Source: Escherichia coli
GTDB taxonomy: Bacteria > Pseudomonadota > Gammaproteobacteria > Enterobacterales > Enterobacteriaceae
Assembly: GCF_050320075.1 (NCBI RefSeq)
Contig: NZ_CP190018.1
Reading direction: 5' to 3' (one strand)
DNA: 64,000 nt
Shown here: one piece after another, positions 6,001-12,000 of the stretch
Layout: each line of letters opens with the position of its first letter
How positions within the stretch are numbered: position 1 is the first letter of the stretch
Position numbers: made by a program

Positions 6001-9000
6001 CCATAATAGATATTTCTTTATAGTTTTCATCTGATTCTGAGGCGATATGCCTGATAGTAACGTAAACCTGTCTGATGTTTATATCCCTTCTGTTTAGTTT
6101 AATTCTGTTAATTTTGGGGCGTGACATGAGTATCCATCGCCCCATAAAATAGCCTTTTTTTAAAGGTACATAAAATCTATTTTTATTCAATGCTTATAAA
6201 GCGCTAATAATCAATATTATGGTATTATATTCTGATAATGATTTGATAAGCGAATTCTTTTGCCGGATGGTATTTCTATTTCCACCCCATAATTTATAGT
6301 TTTTTCATCAGGTAGCGATCTCTTTAAATAAGGCGTGCGTGACATTTTTTTTGGGTTAAGTGTCTCGTATTGAAATACTTCGAATTGATATTCAGACATT
6401 TCTGCCCATGTTTGAATTTTATTGTATCGGGAGAGTGTCGTAAAGGCTTTAACTTGCTTATAACATTGTTTTTGGAATTCTTGCTGATATTTTAATATGT
6501 CATTGTATGAAAGATTGGTTATCCTGGCCTCTAAGAATTTAATTATTGTCGAAGCAATTTCCGCTTTTGCTCGTAAAAAGTTGTCATTAATGGTTAATAA
6601 TGTTGAAAATAAACCTTCGATTTGTTTGTCAAGATATTGTTCGTCTTTATATAATTTTGGGGTAGGGTGTTCTTTATGTGAAAAAATAGTGTCACCTAAA
6701 TTTGCGTCAGTGAAATTTATATTAAGTAGATCTTCGAAATAAAACCTTGACAAGGTTAGAACGAACCCGGACAGGTTCTGTCCTGTCATATTGAAATCAA
6801 TAAAGTTGGTTCCGGCAAAGACTTTCATCCTGTTTTTATTTTCACTGTGTTCAATATATAACTTCGTCATTTTTTGATACAGGCTTTGAATATCTTTTAT
6901 ATTAGTCGGTAAGTCAGCTCGTTGTTCAGCATTAAAATTAGTATCTGAAAACATGGTTTGGACACTGAATCTTACTGGTATTCCCTCTTCTACGCTAATT
7001 TTAGTTATGATTGCCTTGTCGGGTTTAGGATTAGCGACAACAATGATTCGACATTCAGAATTTTTATTCTTTTCGTATCTAATGTTATTAATCTGATTAA
7101 GTATTGATTGTGTCTGTTGCGTAAGTGGTGTCGAACTTATCGTTTCAATGTTATTAATAAGACTTACAAGTTGAGCCACAATTTTTGAGTAGTCTGCATT
7201 TGTATATGTAGTGTTCGTGTGGCACGCATTAATTTGTTGAAGTTGGTGTTGCGCTAAATCATATTGATCAGAGGTATATCCTTCTCCAGAGAATGTGGAA
7301 TTAATGGGTTGTTGTTCTTCCCAATTATCGCAAGGCCACTTCGGTGTATCTGGCGTTTTAGCATTATCGGTATTTGTTGTGCAGTTATAAATATCGCCGT
7401 GATATGTATTTATTATACCTGGGGTAAAGTCAATTGACATAAAATTCCTTATTCATCATTTGTTTTATGCTAAGATGTTTAAATTGGATAATTAGAACAG
7501 GAATGGATTTTCTTCTACACACAATAAATGTAATGCGTTATCTCTTCCTGATATAATTACCTTTGATTTCCCTTTTATCTCCACCCGGTAATATTTGTGT
7601 ATAAAAAAAGGGCAGTGATAGTATCGTAAAGGAAAACGTTAACAACTATCAAAAAGCGCTCATTTTAAAAAGTTATGATGTTCACCGATAGTGTGTGAAG
7701 TGATATTTTTGTGATGTTTTAGATGTGTAATAATGAACCAGGTTAAAGTGTATTTAAAAATGTGTTGTATTGGCGACTGAAATCTGCCCTTTAAAAGGGG
7801 GATAGCACTGAAACAAAGAGACATTGCTTCTCCGATAAAATGTCAGAGAAGCATGATTGCGTGGTGATTGTCGATTGATGACTTACTGACGGATCCGTCA
7901 TCATTCTCAAAGCATTAGTTAAGTTATTTGTGATTTTTAAGGATTATCCTATCTATGATTTTCTACTCAGAAGGATAAGGCACTCACAATGCTCCTTATA
8001 GTTTACTGCTGGCATCTATTTAAAATAGCATTTGAGTCAAATAGCCCATCAAGATAGCCATACCTAAGATAACCGTCAGGAATGCAGCTATCATCGGCAT
8101 TCTGAACATTGATTTAAGTAATATCACTTCCGTCAGGCTTGCTCCGGCACTGCCGATGATTAATGCCATTAATGCTCCCAGCCCCATTCCTTTTGTCATC
8201 AGAACAGATGCCAGAGGGATAACCGCCTCTGCCCGGATATACAGCGGAATTCCGACAACGGCGCTCAATGGGATGGCGAAGGGATTATCTGCCCCTGCAT
8301 GAGCGGCAATCCACTCTGAGGGAATAAAGCCATAAATAAAAGAGCCTATTAATACCCCTAACAAAAGATATGGCAGTACATCTTTAAACTGTTGCAACGC
8401 ATCTTTGGTGGCTAGTTTTATGGGATTAATACTTACCACAGCTTTGGTACTGCAACAGTTTACTACAGGTTTCTCAATGGCTTTAGCCGCTGGACTACAG
8501 CAACTCACTTTTATTGGCGTATATGTCGTCCCCGGCGAAGTTTTGGCTGGAGCACAACAATTTGCTGATGAGCTTTTACTGGCAATGATATGACGTTCAA
8601 ATCCCAGGGAATCCAGGATAATACTGGCAAGTACGGAGACGCCGGCGGCGATAATCGCGTACAACAAGGTAACTTTCCAGCCAAAGGTCACCCACATTAA
8701 CCCGACGATAATGGGATTAAGTAATGGGGAAACAAATAAAAAAGTGAGAGTCGGACCAAACCCGGCTTTCGCTGATAACAATCCACGTAACATGGGGATT
8801 GTCGAGCAACTACAGAACGGGGTAACGGCTCCCAACAGAGCAGCCAGGAGATAGCCTTTCCCTTTTCTTGCCCCCATCATCTGCTGGATTTTATGGTCTG
8901 GCACCTTTTGTCTTATCAGGCTGACACCGGCACTAATCACTATAAACAGCAAAGAAAGCTCGACGGCGAGAAACACAAACATCTCTGCGGCATCTTGCAG

Positions 9001-12000
9001 CATCGCAAGCCAACTACTCATACGTAACCTCATTGAATGAATCCATATTTCCAGAATAATCGAAATGAAATTCAGATCAAGATATTTCTGGTATTATCGA
9101 AATATCAACCAGACAAAGGGGGTGTCATATGCAGTTGGAAGAAGTTGCTAAAGCGCTGAAAGAGCTAGGTCACCCGACCCGTTTGTTCATATTCAAACAC
9201 CTGGTCAAAGCGGGGGAACAAGGTTTGCCGGTCGGTGAGTTGCAAAAGCAGCTTGGGATCCCCGGCTCCACACTCAGTCACCATATTTCAGCACTGGTAT
9301 CGGTAGGGCTGGTCAAACAAAACCGTGAGAGTCGAACGCTGATGTGTGTTTCGCAATACGCAATGCTGGAAGCGATAATTGAATTCTTACGTGAGGAGTG
9401 CTGCGTAAATAGCAAAATTGCCTGATGCGCTACGCGCTACAGATTTCATGCCATGCACGGTTTTGTAGGTCGGATAAGACGCGTTAGCGTCGCATCCGAC
9501 ATAAACAAAGCGCACTTTACCAACTATGGGCAGTGGATATCGCCGCTTTATTTCAAGCGTTTACCCGCTTCATCAACCACTTTCTCGCCATCTTCCTTGG
9601 TGAACGCGCCTTGTTGCGCATCTGGCAGAATTTCCAGCACGACTTCTGAAGGGCGGCACAGGCGAGTTCCCAGCGGCGTCACCACAATCGGGCGATTAAT
9701 CAGAATCGGGTGCTGAAGCATAAAGTCGATTAACCGATCGTCAGTAAATTTATCTTCTGCAAGGCCCAGTTCCTCATACGGCTCGACGTTTTTACGCAGC
9801 AGCGCGCGTACGGAAATCCCCATATCGGCAATGAGTTTGACCAGTTCATCACGCGTCGGTGGGGTTTCCAGATAATAGACAATGGTCGGTTCTGTGCCGC
9901 TGTTGCGGATCATCTCCAGCGTATTTCGCGACGTGCCGCAGGCTGGGTTGTGATAAATGGTAATGTTGCTCATATCAATATCTCATTACAAAGTGAAAGA
10001 GAGACGTAGCGCCAGCGCAGCCAGCGTCACAAAAAGCACCGGCAGGGTCATGATAATCCCTGTACGGAAGTAATATCCCCAGCTGATAGTCATATTCTTC
10101 TGCGAAAGTACGTGCAGCCAGAGCAGCGTCGCCAGGCTACCAATTGGGGTAATTTTCGGCCCCAAATCGCAGCCAATCACGTTGGCATAAACCATCGCTT
10201 CTTTGATAACGCCAGATGCCGTGCTGCCATCAATGGACAACGCGCCAACCAGTACCGTCGGCATATTGTTCATAATAGAAGAGAGGAAGGCGGTGAGGAA
10301 TCCGGTGCCGAGCGTCGCGGCCCACAGGCCGTTTTCCGCCAGCACGTTGAGTACGCCAGAAAGATATTCCGTTAGTCCGGCATTGCGCAGGCCATAAACC
10401 ACCAGATACATGCCGAGCGAGAAGATGACAATCTGCCAGGGCGCACCGCGTAGCACCTTACCCGTATTAATTGCATGACCGCGTTTAGCGACGGCAAATA
10501 ATATCAGCGCGCCCACTGCCGCAATGGCGCTGACCGGAATGCCGAGCGGTTCCAGAACGAAAAATCCCACCAGCAGAAGCAGTAAAACAACCCAGCCAGT
10601 TTTGAACGTAGCAGGATCTTTAATCGCTTCTGCGGGAGATTTCAGCAGCGCCATGTCGTAGTTCTGCGGAATATCTTTGCGGAAATAGAGATGCAACATC
10701 ACCAGCGTGGCAACAATCGCGGCGATATCCACCGGCACCATCACCAAGGCATATTCGCGAAAGCCGAGGCCAAAGAAATCTGCGGAAACGATATTCACCA
10801 GGTTGGAGACAATAAGCGGCAGGCTGGCGGTATCGGCAATGAACCCGGCCGCCATCACGAACGCAAGCGTCGTGCCTTTACTGAACCCTAAAGCCAGCAG
10901 CATGGCGATGACAATCGGTGTCAAAATAAGCGCCGCGCCATCATTGGCAAACAGAGCTGCAACGGCAGCACCGAGCAGGACAATCCAGGTAAACAGCAAG
11001 CGACCGCGTCCATTGCCCCAGCGTGAGACGTGCAGCGCCGCCCATTCAAAAAAGCCGGACTCATCCAGCAGCAGGCTGATGATAATGACGGCAATAAACG
11101 CCGCCGTCGCGTTCCAGACGATATTCCACACCACCGGAATATCACCCGGATGAACCACGCCCGTAAGCAACGCCAGTACCGCGCCGAGCGTTGCACTCCA
11201 GCCGATGCCTAAACCTTTCGGCTGCCAGATAACCAATACGATGGTCAGGACAAAAATAGCGCCTGCCAGTAACATAATGCCTCCCGGATAAAACACATCT
11301 GAAAATTCATATGTGTTTAGATAAATTTTTTAACTACAAATGTTCTTACTGTCTTCGGAACAATTTTGTCGAGCCAGGTTGCGGACAATCGCCTGAACCT
11401 TTTCCTGTTCACATCGCCAGGCCTCATCAATAATTTTCGCGGCCCATGATGGAATATGCGGTGATAAGCGGTAATGAACCCACTTACCCTGCTTGCGATC
11501 CAGCAATAGCCCACTTTCACGCAGCAATGCCAGGTGGCGGGATATCTTGGGCTGCGACTGATCGAGGGCAGTACAGAGATCGCAGACGCATAATTCTCCC
11601 AGCTCGCTGAGCAGTAAAACGATGCCCAGACGGGTTTCATCAGCAAGAATTTTGAACAGTTGGATGGGTAACAGAAATGACATATTGCGCTCCTGATTGT
11701 TGCAGGTAGTGTCTCTCTTCGAAGCGGATAAGTCAAAAACATATATGACTTAACGAATGTGTAAGCGCAGAAGAAGGTAATAGGTGTGAATTTTGAGTTG
11801 GGTATTCATTTGAAAGGAGGTCTGAATCAGGACGTAAAAAAACCGACTTTGCGTCGGTTTTTTACTTTCCAGCCCTGAGTTGGTGGCTCTGGCCGGAGTG
11901 AGAATGCCCACATCTAACGGTTCAATACTATTAGCCAGTGGCTAACATTGCAAGCGTTAGCGATTTCTTCAGCTGGCGAAGGGACAGTTTGCTATACATG

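What the first reader, a model, noticed from the sequence alone, without database searches (positions are those of the whole stretch)
8020..9425. Additional ArsR-family regulator and ArsP-like permease with three Cys-Cys pairs, inserted beside arsRBC
Between yhiS and arsC sits a divergent gene pair that, as far as I recall, is absent from K-12. One gene is a small ArsR/SmtB regulator ending in a Cys-Cys pair. The other is a permease with the TPFCSCSTIP signature of ArsP organoarsenical exporters plus a hydrophilic loop (SSANCCAPAKTSPGTTYTPIKVSCCSPAAKAIEKPVVNCCSTK) carrying three vicinal cysteine pairs, which is unusual for a permease and suggests direct binding of soft metal(loid)s. The intergenic region has repeated (A/T)TA(A/T)TATCGAAAT motifs that could be the operator. 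The substrate cannot be told from sequence.
Basis: partly seen in the sequence, partly recalled or inferred. Interest (0 to 1): 0.55.

Follow-up and report, generated by a model that had tools for sequence, protein, structure and literature searches.

The report
Organoarsenical sensor and efflux gene pair
Next to the ordinary arsenic-resistance genes, this E. coli strain carries a two-gene module, a repressor and an export pump, that closely matches a Shewanella system known to respond to methylated arsenic; it is a common, already noted accessory module, not a new kind of system.

Summary
A 333/337-aa ArsP_1 (PF03773) permease lies at 8020-9033 (-). A 98-aa ArsR/SmtB regulator lies at 9129-9425 (+). 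They are divergent, sit between yhiS and arsC, and are absent from K-12.

The pair is an orthologue of the Shewanella putrefaciens 200 SpArsR/arsP module, whose repressor is selective for methylarsenite. The regulator is 58% identical to SpArsR with no gaps. It has the same three cysteines (C73/C91/C92 versus C83/C101/C102) and the same recognition helix. The intergenic region holds two copies of a 24-bp operator, ATATTTCTGGTATTATCGAAATAT. This operator is nearly identical in the SpArsR-controlled arsP promoter and is present in all 52 orthologous divergent intergenic regions examined.

Three points of the finding need correction:
- The pair was not inserted. K-12 carries a deletion scar that keeps the last 20 codons of the regulator. 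41% of complete E. coli genomes have the pair and 58% have the scar.
- The Cys-rich loop is normal for this clade. It varies widely in length and sequence but is always Cys-rich.
- The substrate can be inferred: trivalent organoarsenicals are most likely.

A 2017 paper already labelled E. coli operons "ArsRBCRP". I found no experimental work on the E. coli genes. Interest is low.

The parts
8020..9033 (-). ArsP-family permease gene. It is 337 aa from the first ATG at 9033; the PGAP start at 9021 gives 333 aa.
   Evidence: ORF. Pfam ArsP_1 PF03773, E 6.7e-53, model positions 3-293 of 294. RefSeq annotates it 'permease'. It is 51% identical to the Shewanella profunda arsP orthologue L042. AF2 model: pLDDT 84.7, pTM 0.80.
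8794..8823 (-). Codons for TPFCSCSTIP, the CSC cysteine pair (C70 and C72 in 333-aa numbering). In the model it sits at a helix break (residues 67-70) between helices 52-66 and 71-83. It is the proposed substrate-binding thiol pair.
   Evidence: C70 and C72 are invariant in 87/87 orthologues and are the only Cys outside the loop in most of them. The helix break is seen. [quoted passage not shown]
8407..8589 (-). Codons for the hydrophilic central loop (residues 145-205). It holds 6 Cys in three CC pairs, is predicted disordered, and is inferred to face the cytoplasm.
   Evidence: pLDDT is below 50 for residues 152-192. Charge count for segment 139-199: 7 K/R against 2 D/E. Loop statistics across 87 orthologues are.
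9045..9068 (.). Operator site 1, ATATTTCCAGAATAATCGAAATGA. It overlaps the -10-like hexamer of the predicted regulator promoter (-35 at 9033-9038, -10 at 9055-9060).
9082..9105 (.). Operator site 2, ATATTTCTGGTATTATCGAAATAT. It is an exact match to the family consensus and overlaps the predicted -35/-10 of the permease promoter on the minus strand (9108-9079).
   Evidence: The S. putrefaciens arsP promoter contains ATATTTCTGGTATTATCGAATTAC.
9129..9425 (+). SpArsR-type ArsR/SmtB repressor gene, 98 aa. Cys73 is at 9345-9347 and Cys91-Cys92 at 9399-9404.
   Evidence: HTH_20/HTH_5 domains. NCBIfam HTH_metalloreg, 61.9 bits against a cutoff of 55. Best PDB match is AfArsR 6J05, where C91/C92 align with Cys95/Cys96. 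58% identity to SpArsR with no gaps. All three Cys are invariant in 63/63 orthologues.
7825..7853 (-). Terminator-like hairpin (11-bp stem followed by a T-rich tail) about 170 nt downstream of the permease stop. It lies inside the segment missing from K-12.
   Evidence: This is a consensus match only.
7750..9355 (.). Segment present here but replaced by a 105-nt filler in K-12-type genomes. The left edge is approximate (7750-7770).
   Evidence: blastn of the K-12 arsC-yhiS spacer against the window. The same junctions occur in strain 1919D3. 3162/5426 genomes carry the scar and 2219/5426 carry the pair.
9421..9530 (.). REP-type repeat between the convergent regulator and arsC genes. It begins at the regulator's stop codon (GCCTGATGCGCTACGC...) and is also present in K-12.
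   Evidence: Sequence and alignment to K-12.
9548..11683 (-). Context: the canonical arsR-arsB-arsC operon. Its ArsR has the type-1 ELCVCDLC site for inorganic arsenic.

Best explanation
The pair is a self-contained module for sensing and exporting trivalent organoarsenicals. It is orthologous to SpArsR/arsP of Shewanella putrefaciens 200 and complements the neighbouring arsRBC operon, which handles inorganic arsenic.

Proposed mechanism. Without inducer, dimers of the 98-aa repressor bind two 24-bp pseudo-palindromic operators (9045-9068 and 9082-9105) in the short spacer (95 bp from the first ATG at 9033, 107 bp from the PGAP start at 9021) between the two divergent genes. The operators overlap both predicted promoters, so the repressor shuts off its own gene and the permease gene. 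Methylarsenite, or another R-As(III) species such as reduced roxarsone or phenylarsenite, binds the vicinal Cys91-Cys92 pair at the C-terminal end of helix alpha5. This two-thiolate site suits R-As(III) and not As(III). The repressor then leaves the DNA. The permease has two inverted four-helix repeats. Its invariant Cys70-x-Cys72 pair sits at a helix break in the first repeat, binds the organoarsenical and exports it. The Lys-rich, Cys-rich, disordered central loop probably faces the cytoplasm and may pre-concentrate the substrate or hand it to the CSC site.

What is shown here: orthology, cysteine conservation, operator conservation, gene linkage and the predicted fold. What is inferred: the inducer, the substrate, promoter overlap, loop orientation and loop role.
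For: Regulator:
- It is 58% identical to SpArsR over 92 aa with no gaps. C73/C91/C92 align with C83/C101/C102, and the recognition helix IPGSTLSHHISAL is identical. The SpArsR sequence comes from the PMC12124457 supplement.
- C91/C92 align with AfArsR Cys95/Cys96, and no Cys corresponds to AfArsR Cys102. This is the pattern reported to make SpArsR MAs(III)-selective (PMC13236881; PMC11868830).
- The SpArsR plus arsP-promoter biosensor responds to 0.1-1 uM MMAs(III) but reaches only 9% of the derepressed level at 50 uM As(III) (PMC12124457).
- All three Cys are invariant in 63/63 orthologous regulators, down to 46% identity.

Operator:
- The consensus ATATTTCTGGTATTATCGAAATAT is found in 52/52 divergent intergenic regions from more than 40 species and in the Sput200 arsP promoter. 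There are 112 sites against 0.05 in shuffles.
- The only two matches in the 64-kb window are in this spacer.
- The sites overlap promoter-like hexamers.

Permease:
- Full-length ArsP_1 match.
- The CSC pair is invariant in 87/87 orthologues.
- C. jejuni ArsP exports MAs(III) and trivalent roxarsone but not As(III) (PMC6205960).

Gene linkage:
- The pair sits directly after arsC in E. coli and E. fergusonii (arsRBC), and in Citrobacter and Salmonella (arsRDABC).
- In Salmonella L012 the regulator is followed by arsH (TIGR02690, 405.6 bits against a cutoff of 292). Buttiauxella L029 and Pseudoalteromonas L087 also have arsH nearby.
- ArsA and ArsD are the only functionally informative recurrent neighbours in the 80-species scan.
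- A 2017 study labelled E. coli operons ArsRBCRP and ArsRDABCRP (PMC5718612).
Against: - I found no experiment on the E. coli proteins.
- 58% identity to SpArsR and 51% identity to the Shewanella arsP leave room for changed specificity.
- In about 72 of 80 species loci the pair is not next to any of the ars genes I searched for. That is a lower bound, because Acr3, ArsM and ArsI were not used as seeds.
- On plasmids the pair travels alone in Tn3/IS26 regions.
- The best specific NCBIfam hit is a Cu/Zn efflux family, though far below its cutoff.
- Invariant Cys73 could in principle complete a three-thiolate As(III) or soft-metal site across the dimer.
- I could not obtain the C. jejuni ArsP sequence, so similarity to the only transport-characterised ArsP was not measured.
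- The role of the Shewanella arsP itself in transport rests on annotation and regulation, not on transport assays I could read.
Confidence: 0.7

Rival explanations
1. A soft-metal (Cu(I)/Zn/Cd/Hg) efflux module. The permease would work like the SO_0444 Cu/Zn exporter, the CC-rich loop would act as a metal-binding domain, and the three-Cys repressor would sense the metal.
For: The best specific NCBIfam hit is the SO_0444 family (109.7 bits, E 1.6e-31), followed by SaoE. The CSC motif is shared with those families. SO_0444 is needed for growth under Zn and Cu stress (PMC3219624). Cys-rich loops are typical soft-metal ligands. Most species loci lack ars neighbours.
Against: The score is far below the family cutoff (109.7 against 300; SaoE 86.4 against 325). 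SO_0444 is paired with a MerR/ZntR-type regulator, whereas this permease is paired with an SpArsR orthologue that shares SpArsR's operator. The only informative recurrent neighbours are ars genes, including arsH.
Confidence: 0.12
2. A second inorganic As(III)/Sb(III) sensor and exporter. Cys73 from the partner subunit, together with Cys91 and Cys92, would form a three-thiolate site, and the permease would back up ArsB.
For: The three Cys are invariant in 63/63 regulators. The closest solved structure is the As(III) sensor AfArsR. The pair sits next to arsRBC or arsRDABC. Some Vibrio and Shewanella orthologues add a Cys (CCxxxxC) that resembles AfArsR Cys102.
Against: SpArsR has the same three Cys yet responds very weakly to As(III) (9% at 50 uM). 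The E. coli protein lacks the AfArsR Cys102 equivalent. C. jejuni ArsP does not extrude arsenite. The window already has a type-1 ArsR and ArsB for As(III).
Confidence: 0.12
3. A redox or reactive-sulfur sensor of the BigR/YgaV/SqrR type that controls export of a sulfur compound.
For: Weaker similarity to BigR (38.5 bits; PDB 3pqj, E 2.2e-7) and to YgaV (3cuo, E 2.1e-7).
Against: The scores are far below the cutoffs (BigR cutoff 155). The cysteine positions follow AfArsR/SpArsR, not the alpha2/alpha5 pair of BigR. The operator and the SpArsR orthology argue for arsenic.
Confidence: 0.04

Closest known systems
SpArsR (Sput200_1227) / arsP (Sput200_1226) of Shewanella putrefaciens 200
   Same: Both are divergent regulator-permease pairs. 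The regulator is 58% identical with no gaps, with the same three Cys at the same spacing and an identical recognition helix. The operator is nearly identical: ATATTTCTGGTATTATCGAA(A/T)T. The permease is 51% identical to that of the near-identical S. profunda locus L042, whose loop also carries 6 Cys and 2 CC pairs.
   Different: The spacer is shorter (95-107 bp, depending on the permease start, against 222 bp). The regulator is 98 aa against 105 aa because it lacks the N-terminal extension. The loop has three CC pairs instead of two. The E. coli proteins are untested.
ArsP of Campylobacter jejuni (TCDB 2.A.119.1.1), a methylarsenite and trivalent roxarsone efflux permease
   Same: Same Pfam/TCDB family (PF03773) and an ars-operon context. 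From my own recollection of Chen et al. 2015, which I could not check here, the family also shares a vicinal Cys pair in a PFCSC-type motif.
   Different: C. jejuni arsP belongs to an arsP-arsR-arsC-acr3 operon with a different ArsR.
AfArsR of Acidithiobacillus ferrooxidans (PDB 6J05), a type-2 As(III) sensor
   Same: It is the best solved-structure match (E 4.7e-10), and its Cys95-Cys96 align with C91-C92.
   Different: The third ligand, Cys102, is absent: the E. coli protein ends six residues after the CC pair with no further Cys.
SO_0444 family Cu/Zn efflux transporters and SaoE
   Same: Same superfamily and the same CSC motif.
   Different: The scores are about one third of the curated cutoffs, and the regulator partner is different.
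E. coli 'ArsRBCRP' and 'ArsRDABCRP' operons described from gut metagenomes of arsenic-exposed children (PMC5718612)
   Same: Same gene order as in the window (R-B-C-R-P) and the same species.
   Different: That paper only labels the genes from BacMet annotation. It does not analyse the second R or the P. I did not verify base by base that strain ST2747 carries this exact allele.

Membership tests
ArsP family (Pfam PF03773 / TCDB 2.A.119) | Full-length match to the ArsP_1 profile | tested here: met
   E 6.7e-53, residues 13-334, model positions 3-293 of 294.
ArsP family (Pfam PF03773 / TCDB 2.A.119) | [quoted passage not shown] | tested here: met
   The AF2 model has two four-helix halves (2-138 and 200-332) around a disordered loop. 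The loop is 31-108 aa across 87 orthologues.
ArsP family (Pfam PF03773 / TCDB 2.A.119) | Conserved cysteine pair (C-S-C) in the first repeat | tested here: met
   C70 and C72 are invariant in 87/87. The motif is noted for related families.
ArsP family (Pfam PF03773 / TCDB 2.A.119) | Efflux of MAs(III) or trivalent roxarsone but not As(III) | not testable with these tools
   Needs transport or MIC assays. This property is reported for C. jejuni ArsP.
SpArsR-type (MAs(III)-selective) ArsR | Vicinal Cys pair equivalent to AfArsR Cys95/Cys96 (SpArsR Cys101/Cys102) | tested here: met
   Invariant in 63/63.
SpArsR-type (MAs(III)-selective) ArsR | No third ligand equivalent to AfArsR Cys102 | tested here: met
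   The tail after the CC pair is VNSKIA, with no Cys.
SpArsR-type (MAs(III)-selective) ArsR | Controls an adjacent arsP through an operator in the arsP promoter | tested here: met
   This is met at the sequence level only: the arrangement is divergent and adjacent, and the 24-bp site is shared with the Sput200 arsP promoter. Binding itself was not tested.
SpArsR-type (MAs(III)-selective) ArsR | Derepression by MAs(III) and not by As(III) | not testable with these tools
   Shown for SpArsR. Needs a reporter or EMSA for the E. coli protein.
AfArsR-type (type 2) As(III) sensor | Three-Cys site Cys95-Cys96-Cys102 | tested here: not met
   The third Cys is absent.
R773/K-12 ArsR (type 1) | CXCXXC site in the DNA-binding region | tested here: not met
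   There is no Cys before residue 73. The neighbouring canonical ArsR does have ELCVCDLC.
SO_0444 family Cu/Zn efflux transporter (NF033936) | Score at or above the curated cutoff (300 bits) | tested here: not met
   109.7 bits.
SaoE (NF040736) | Score at or above the curated cutoff (325 bits), and co-occurrence with the SAO ABC transporter | tested here: not met
   86.4 bits. No such neighbours are present.

The most novel reading that the evidence does not exclude
The disordered, fast-evolving Cys-rich cytoplasmic loop may be a built-in thiol 'antenna' with a chaperone-like role comparable to ArsD for ArsA. It would strip R-As(III), or other soft metal(loid)s, from glutathione and relay it to the Cys70-x-Cys72 pair at a helix break that may be a re-entrant hairpin tip. 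The transporter's predicted fold is a minimal version of the ArsB/DASS (IT-superfamily) elevator fold, not the TOG fold assigned in the literature. Gain and loss of CC repeats would tune capacity or specificity, so that enteric and plasmid-borne variants with up to 10 Cys could handle substrates beyond methylarsenite.
Probability: 0.3. Interest if true: 0.45.

Novelty: already known. Interest (0 to 1): 0.2.

Why it matters
The practical value is annotation. RefSeq names these two genes only 'permease' and 'ArsR/SmtB family transcription factor'. They are present in about 41% of complete E. coli genomes and on roughly 790 plasmids in PLSDB, many of them conjugative multidrug-resistance plasmids from poultry, pigs and people. 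Recognising them as a probable methylarsenite/organoarsenical resistance module suggests three things. E. coli strains may differ in tolerance to organoarsenicals made by gut anaerobes or once used as feed additives. Such compounds could co-select resistance plasmids. The native E. coli operator and repressor could serve as a biosensor part. None of this changes what is understood about how these systems work.

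Tried and rejected
- The primary papers on SpArsR (PMC5653410) and ArsP (PMC4681449) are not held. A text search for the ArsP Cys65/Cys67 residues found nothing relevant. That detail therefore rests on my memory and is marked as such.
- Membership in SO_0444 and SaoE was tested and rejected on the curated cutoffs.
- A BigR/YgaV-type sulfur or redox sensor was considered and rejected on score and cysteine positions.
- Clustering of neighbours over 80 species loci found no conserved partner other than the regulator, so there is no hidden third component.
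- The first MAFFT alignment to K-12 misplaced the REP and the gene remnant. blastn corrected this.
- I did not find the C. jejuni ArsP sequence in any accessible collection, so no direct comparison or phylogeny with it was made.

Full report
WHAT IS THERE. The window holds the two ORFs exactly as described. The permease lies at 8020-9033 on the minus strand. It is 337 aa from the first ATG; RefSeq/PGAP starts it at 9021, giving 333 aa. The regulator lies at 9129-9425 on the plus strand and is 98 aa. The genes are divergent, with a 95-107 bp spacer depending on the permease start. They sit between an intact yhiS (6217-7440) and the convergent arsC (9548-9973) of a canonical arsRBC operon. In an identical RefSeq genome they are annotated only as 'permease' and 'ArsR/SmtB family transcription factor'. 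The TPFCSCSTIP motif, the loop with three CC pairs and the C-terminal ...EECCVNSKIA are all present. K-12 MG1655 has neither gene.

FAMILY ASSIGNMENT. The permease matches Pfam ArsP_1 (PF03773) end to end, with E 6.7e-53. PF03773 is the signature domain of the TCDB organo-arsenical exporter family, which is described as two 4-TMS repeats around a hydrophilic loop of variable size (PMC7176098). The best specific NCBIfam models are the SO_0444 Cu/Zn efflux family (109.7 bits against a cutoff of 300) and SaoE (86.4 against 325), so it belongs to neither. The regulator passes only the generic metalloregulator ArsR/SmtB model and has HTH_20/HTH_5 domains.

THE REGULATOR IS AN SpArsR ORTHOLOGUE. The closest solved structure is the As(III) sensor AfArsR (6J05, E 4.7e-10). 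Cys91-Cys92 align exactly with its Cys95-Cys96, and the E. coli protein ends without an equivalent of the third ligand, Cys102. Two Cys equivalent to AfArsR Cys95/96 and no third Cys is the pattern reported for SpArsR of Shewanella putrefaciens 200, a repressor that responds to methylarsenite but not arsenite (PMC13236881; PMC11868830). An open-access biosensor paper gives the SpArsR gene (Sput200_1227) and the 222-bp promoter of the adjacent arsP (Sput200_1226). It shows the pair responding to 0.1-1 uM MMAs(III) while reaching only 9% of the derepressed signal at 50 uM As(III) (PMC12124457). The machine-read text of that sequence had dropped a few bases, so I reconstructed SpArsR using the near-identical S. 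profunda protein. The E. coli regulator is 58% identical to it over 92 residues with no gaps. C73/C91/C92 align with C83/C101/C102, and the recognition helix IPGSTLSHHISAL is identical.

THE OPERATOR. The spacer holds two 24-nt sites, 9045-9068 and 9082-9105. These are the only two ATTTC-N10-GAAAT matches in the 64-kb window, against 0.14 expected. The second site, ATATTTCTGGTATTATCGAAATAT, is almost the same as a site in the SpArsR-regulated arsP promoter, ATATTTCTGGTATTATCGAATTAC. That promoter also has a second, weaker copy. I extracted the divergent regulator-permease spacers from 51 other loci covering more than 40 species (Vibrio, Shewanella, Photobacterium, Pseudoalteromonas, Colwellia, Aeromonas, Citrobacter, Salmonella, Ruegeria and others). 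An iterated weight matrix found the motif in every one, usually as two copies: 112 sites against 0.05 in shuffled spacers. The matrix was seeded from the window, so the consensus is partly circular. Even so, scores above 30 bits in proteobacteria 50% diverged at the protein level cannot be chance. The sites overlap promoter-like hexamers for both genes. Those hexamers are weak consensus matches, so promoter overlap is an inference.

CONSERVATION OF THE PAIR AND ITS NEIGHBOURS. A scan of one genome per species returned 80 loci with 48-69% identical permeases. In 56 of them an orthologous regulator lies within 6 kb. In 46 it is adjacent and divergent. All three regulator cysteines are invariant in 63/63 sequences, down to 46% identity. 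A subset of Vibrio and Shewanella proteins adds a further Cys (CCxxxxC). Clustering of neighbours found no other conserved partner. After a generic LysR family and a Vibrio-specific sigma-like ORF, the only recurrent informative neighbours are ArsA and ArsD. In Enterobacterales the link to arsenic genes is tight:
- E. coli and E. fergusonii have arsRBC followed by the pair.
- Citrobacter has arsRDABC followed by the pair.
- Salmonella has arsDABC, then arsH transcribed behind the regulator, with the permease divergent.
The arsH call is secure (TIGR02690, 405.6 bits against a cutoff of 292). ArsH oxidises trivalent organoarsenicals and ArsP exports them (PMC6205960), so this layout is a coherent organoarsenical unit.

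THE CYS-RICH LOOP. Close orthologues (70-98% identical in the membrane core) differ greatly in the loop. Across 87 orthologues the loop is 31-108 aa, never lacks Cys (1-10 Cys, 8.9% of loop residues), and has at least one CC in 62 cases. The shortest form is a GCxxxCG-type element. Most orthologues have only two other cysteines, the invariant C70 and C72. The E. coli loop is therefore a typical member of a fast-evolving, compositionally conserved segment and not an oddity. The Shewanella arsP orthologue has 6 Cys and 2 CC pairs.

PREDICTED STRUCTURE. An AlphaFold2 model built on a 50-sequence alignment is confident (pLDDT 84.7, pTM 0.80) except for residues 152-192, which are predicted disordered. 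Each half contains a long helix, two helix-break-helix pairs and another long helix. TPFC (67-70) lies at the first break. K/R residues cluster at 37-55, 79-85, 139-213 and 303-307, and the remaining connecting segments are acidic or neutral. For both the 37-55 segment and the central loop to be cytoplasmic under the positive-inside rule, helices 52-83 must form a re-entrant hairpin. This places the Cys-rich loop in the reducing cytoplasm and the CSC pair at a hairpin tip. All of this is inference.

POPULATION GENETICS AND DIRECTION OF CHANGE. The pair is on the chromosome in 2219 of 5426 complete E. coli genomes. The K-12-type spacer is present in 3162. In K-12, window segment ~7750-9355 is replaced by a 105-nt filler, and homology resumes inside the regulator gene at 9356. 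Strain 1919D3 has the same junctions, and its remnant still encodes MLEAIIEFLREECCVNSKIA*. PGAP annotates that remnant as a truncated transcriptional regulator. K-12's copy has decayed to MLDAIIGISRREYCVNSKIA*. A truncated gene end cannot be ancestral, and E. fergusonii has the pair in the same place, so K-12 lost the pair. The window strain did not gain it.

MOBILITY. The module is nevertheless mobile. A 74-85% diverged copy sits in another chromosomal island near yhiM in some E. coli. About 790 PLSDB plasmids carry it, mostly Escherichia and Salmonella plasmids, and 563 of them are conjugative. On these plasmids it is cargo of Tn3-family or IS26-bounded regions among antibiotic-resistance genes.

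PRIOR KNOWLEDGE. A 2017 metagenomic study of arsenic-exposed children labelled E. coli operons 'ArsRBCRP' (strain ST2747) and 'ArsRDABCRP' (strain FHI98) from BacMet annotation (PMC5718612). The arrangement has therefore been seen and named. I found no paper that tests the E. coli regulator or permease.

VERDICT. The identification as an ArsR-family regulator plus an ArsP permease with an operator is supported. The claims of insertion and of an unusual loop are not. The most likely function is MAs(III)/organoarsenical-responsive repression and efflux, with confidence about 0.7. The rivals are soft-metal efflux, inorganic As(III)/Sb(III) handling and sulfur/redox sensing. All three are weaker but not excluded without experiments. 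This is an orthologue of a characterised system that has already been noted in E. coli, so novelty and interest are low. The residual interest lies in the loop's role and in the ArsB/DASS-like predicted fold.

Noticed in passing
[not shown]
   Followed up: partly
window ~7750-9355; L002 (K-12) 5664-6291; L096: The locus has two forms in E. coli. 2219/5426 complete genomes carry the pair. 3162/5426 carry one shared deletion scar: a 105-nt filler plus the last 20 codons of the regulator. Those codons are intact in strain 1919D3 and decayed in K-12.
   Followed up: yes
L003 5599-6999: Some E. coli carry a second, 74-85% diverged copy of the same pair in a different chromosomal island, beside a DUF2776 (yhiM-like) gene and next to OYE-type, SDR and aldo-keto reductase genes.
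   Followed up: no
L006 8334-9896; L007 8301-9863; L095 5573-7038; L094 6563-8023: The pair is widespread on plasmids (about 790 PLSDB records, mostly Escherichia and Salmonella, 563 conjugative). It is cargo of Tn3-family or IS26/IS1-bounded segments among resistance genes. A 49%-identical variant sits next to lnu(G) on an IncY plasmid that also encodes phage proteins. Many source labels are poultry, pig or cattle.
   Followed up: partly
L012 3760-4470: In Salmonella the regulator is followed, on the same strand, by a bona fide arsH (405.6 bits). This gives a regulator-arsH unit divergent from arsP. In L011 an IS66 element has replaced arsH.
   Followed up: partly
window 6217-7440: yhiS is an intact 407-aa ORF here. 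In K-12 it is a pseudogene split by IS5.
   Followed up: no
hit H1, NZ_CP195442.1 358502-361451: In strain 23AR0303 an IS5 element is inserted within the region that holds the pair. The match to the query is split into two pieces around the IS5 transposase gene.
   Followed up: no
L054 4899-5501 and eight other Vibrio loci: In nine Vibrio loci an ECF-sigma-like ORF with a Cys-rich C-terminus (…CCHLSLDKHGNVIDYHAKSDRCSKC) lies next to the regulator-permease pair.
   Followed up: no
L021, L028, L035, L039, L040 and other Vibrio/Shewanella regulators: A subset of orthologous regulators has an extra Cys four or five residues after the CC pair (CCxxxxC), and often another at position 79. This resembles the three-Cys AfArsR site and hints at different inducer selectivity within the family.
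   Followed up: no
window 9421-9530: A REP-type repeat starts exactly at the regulator's stop codon and fills the gap to arsC. K-12 has the same element, with an extra insertion.
   Followed up: partly
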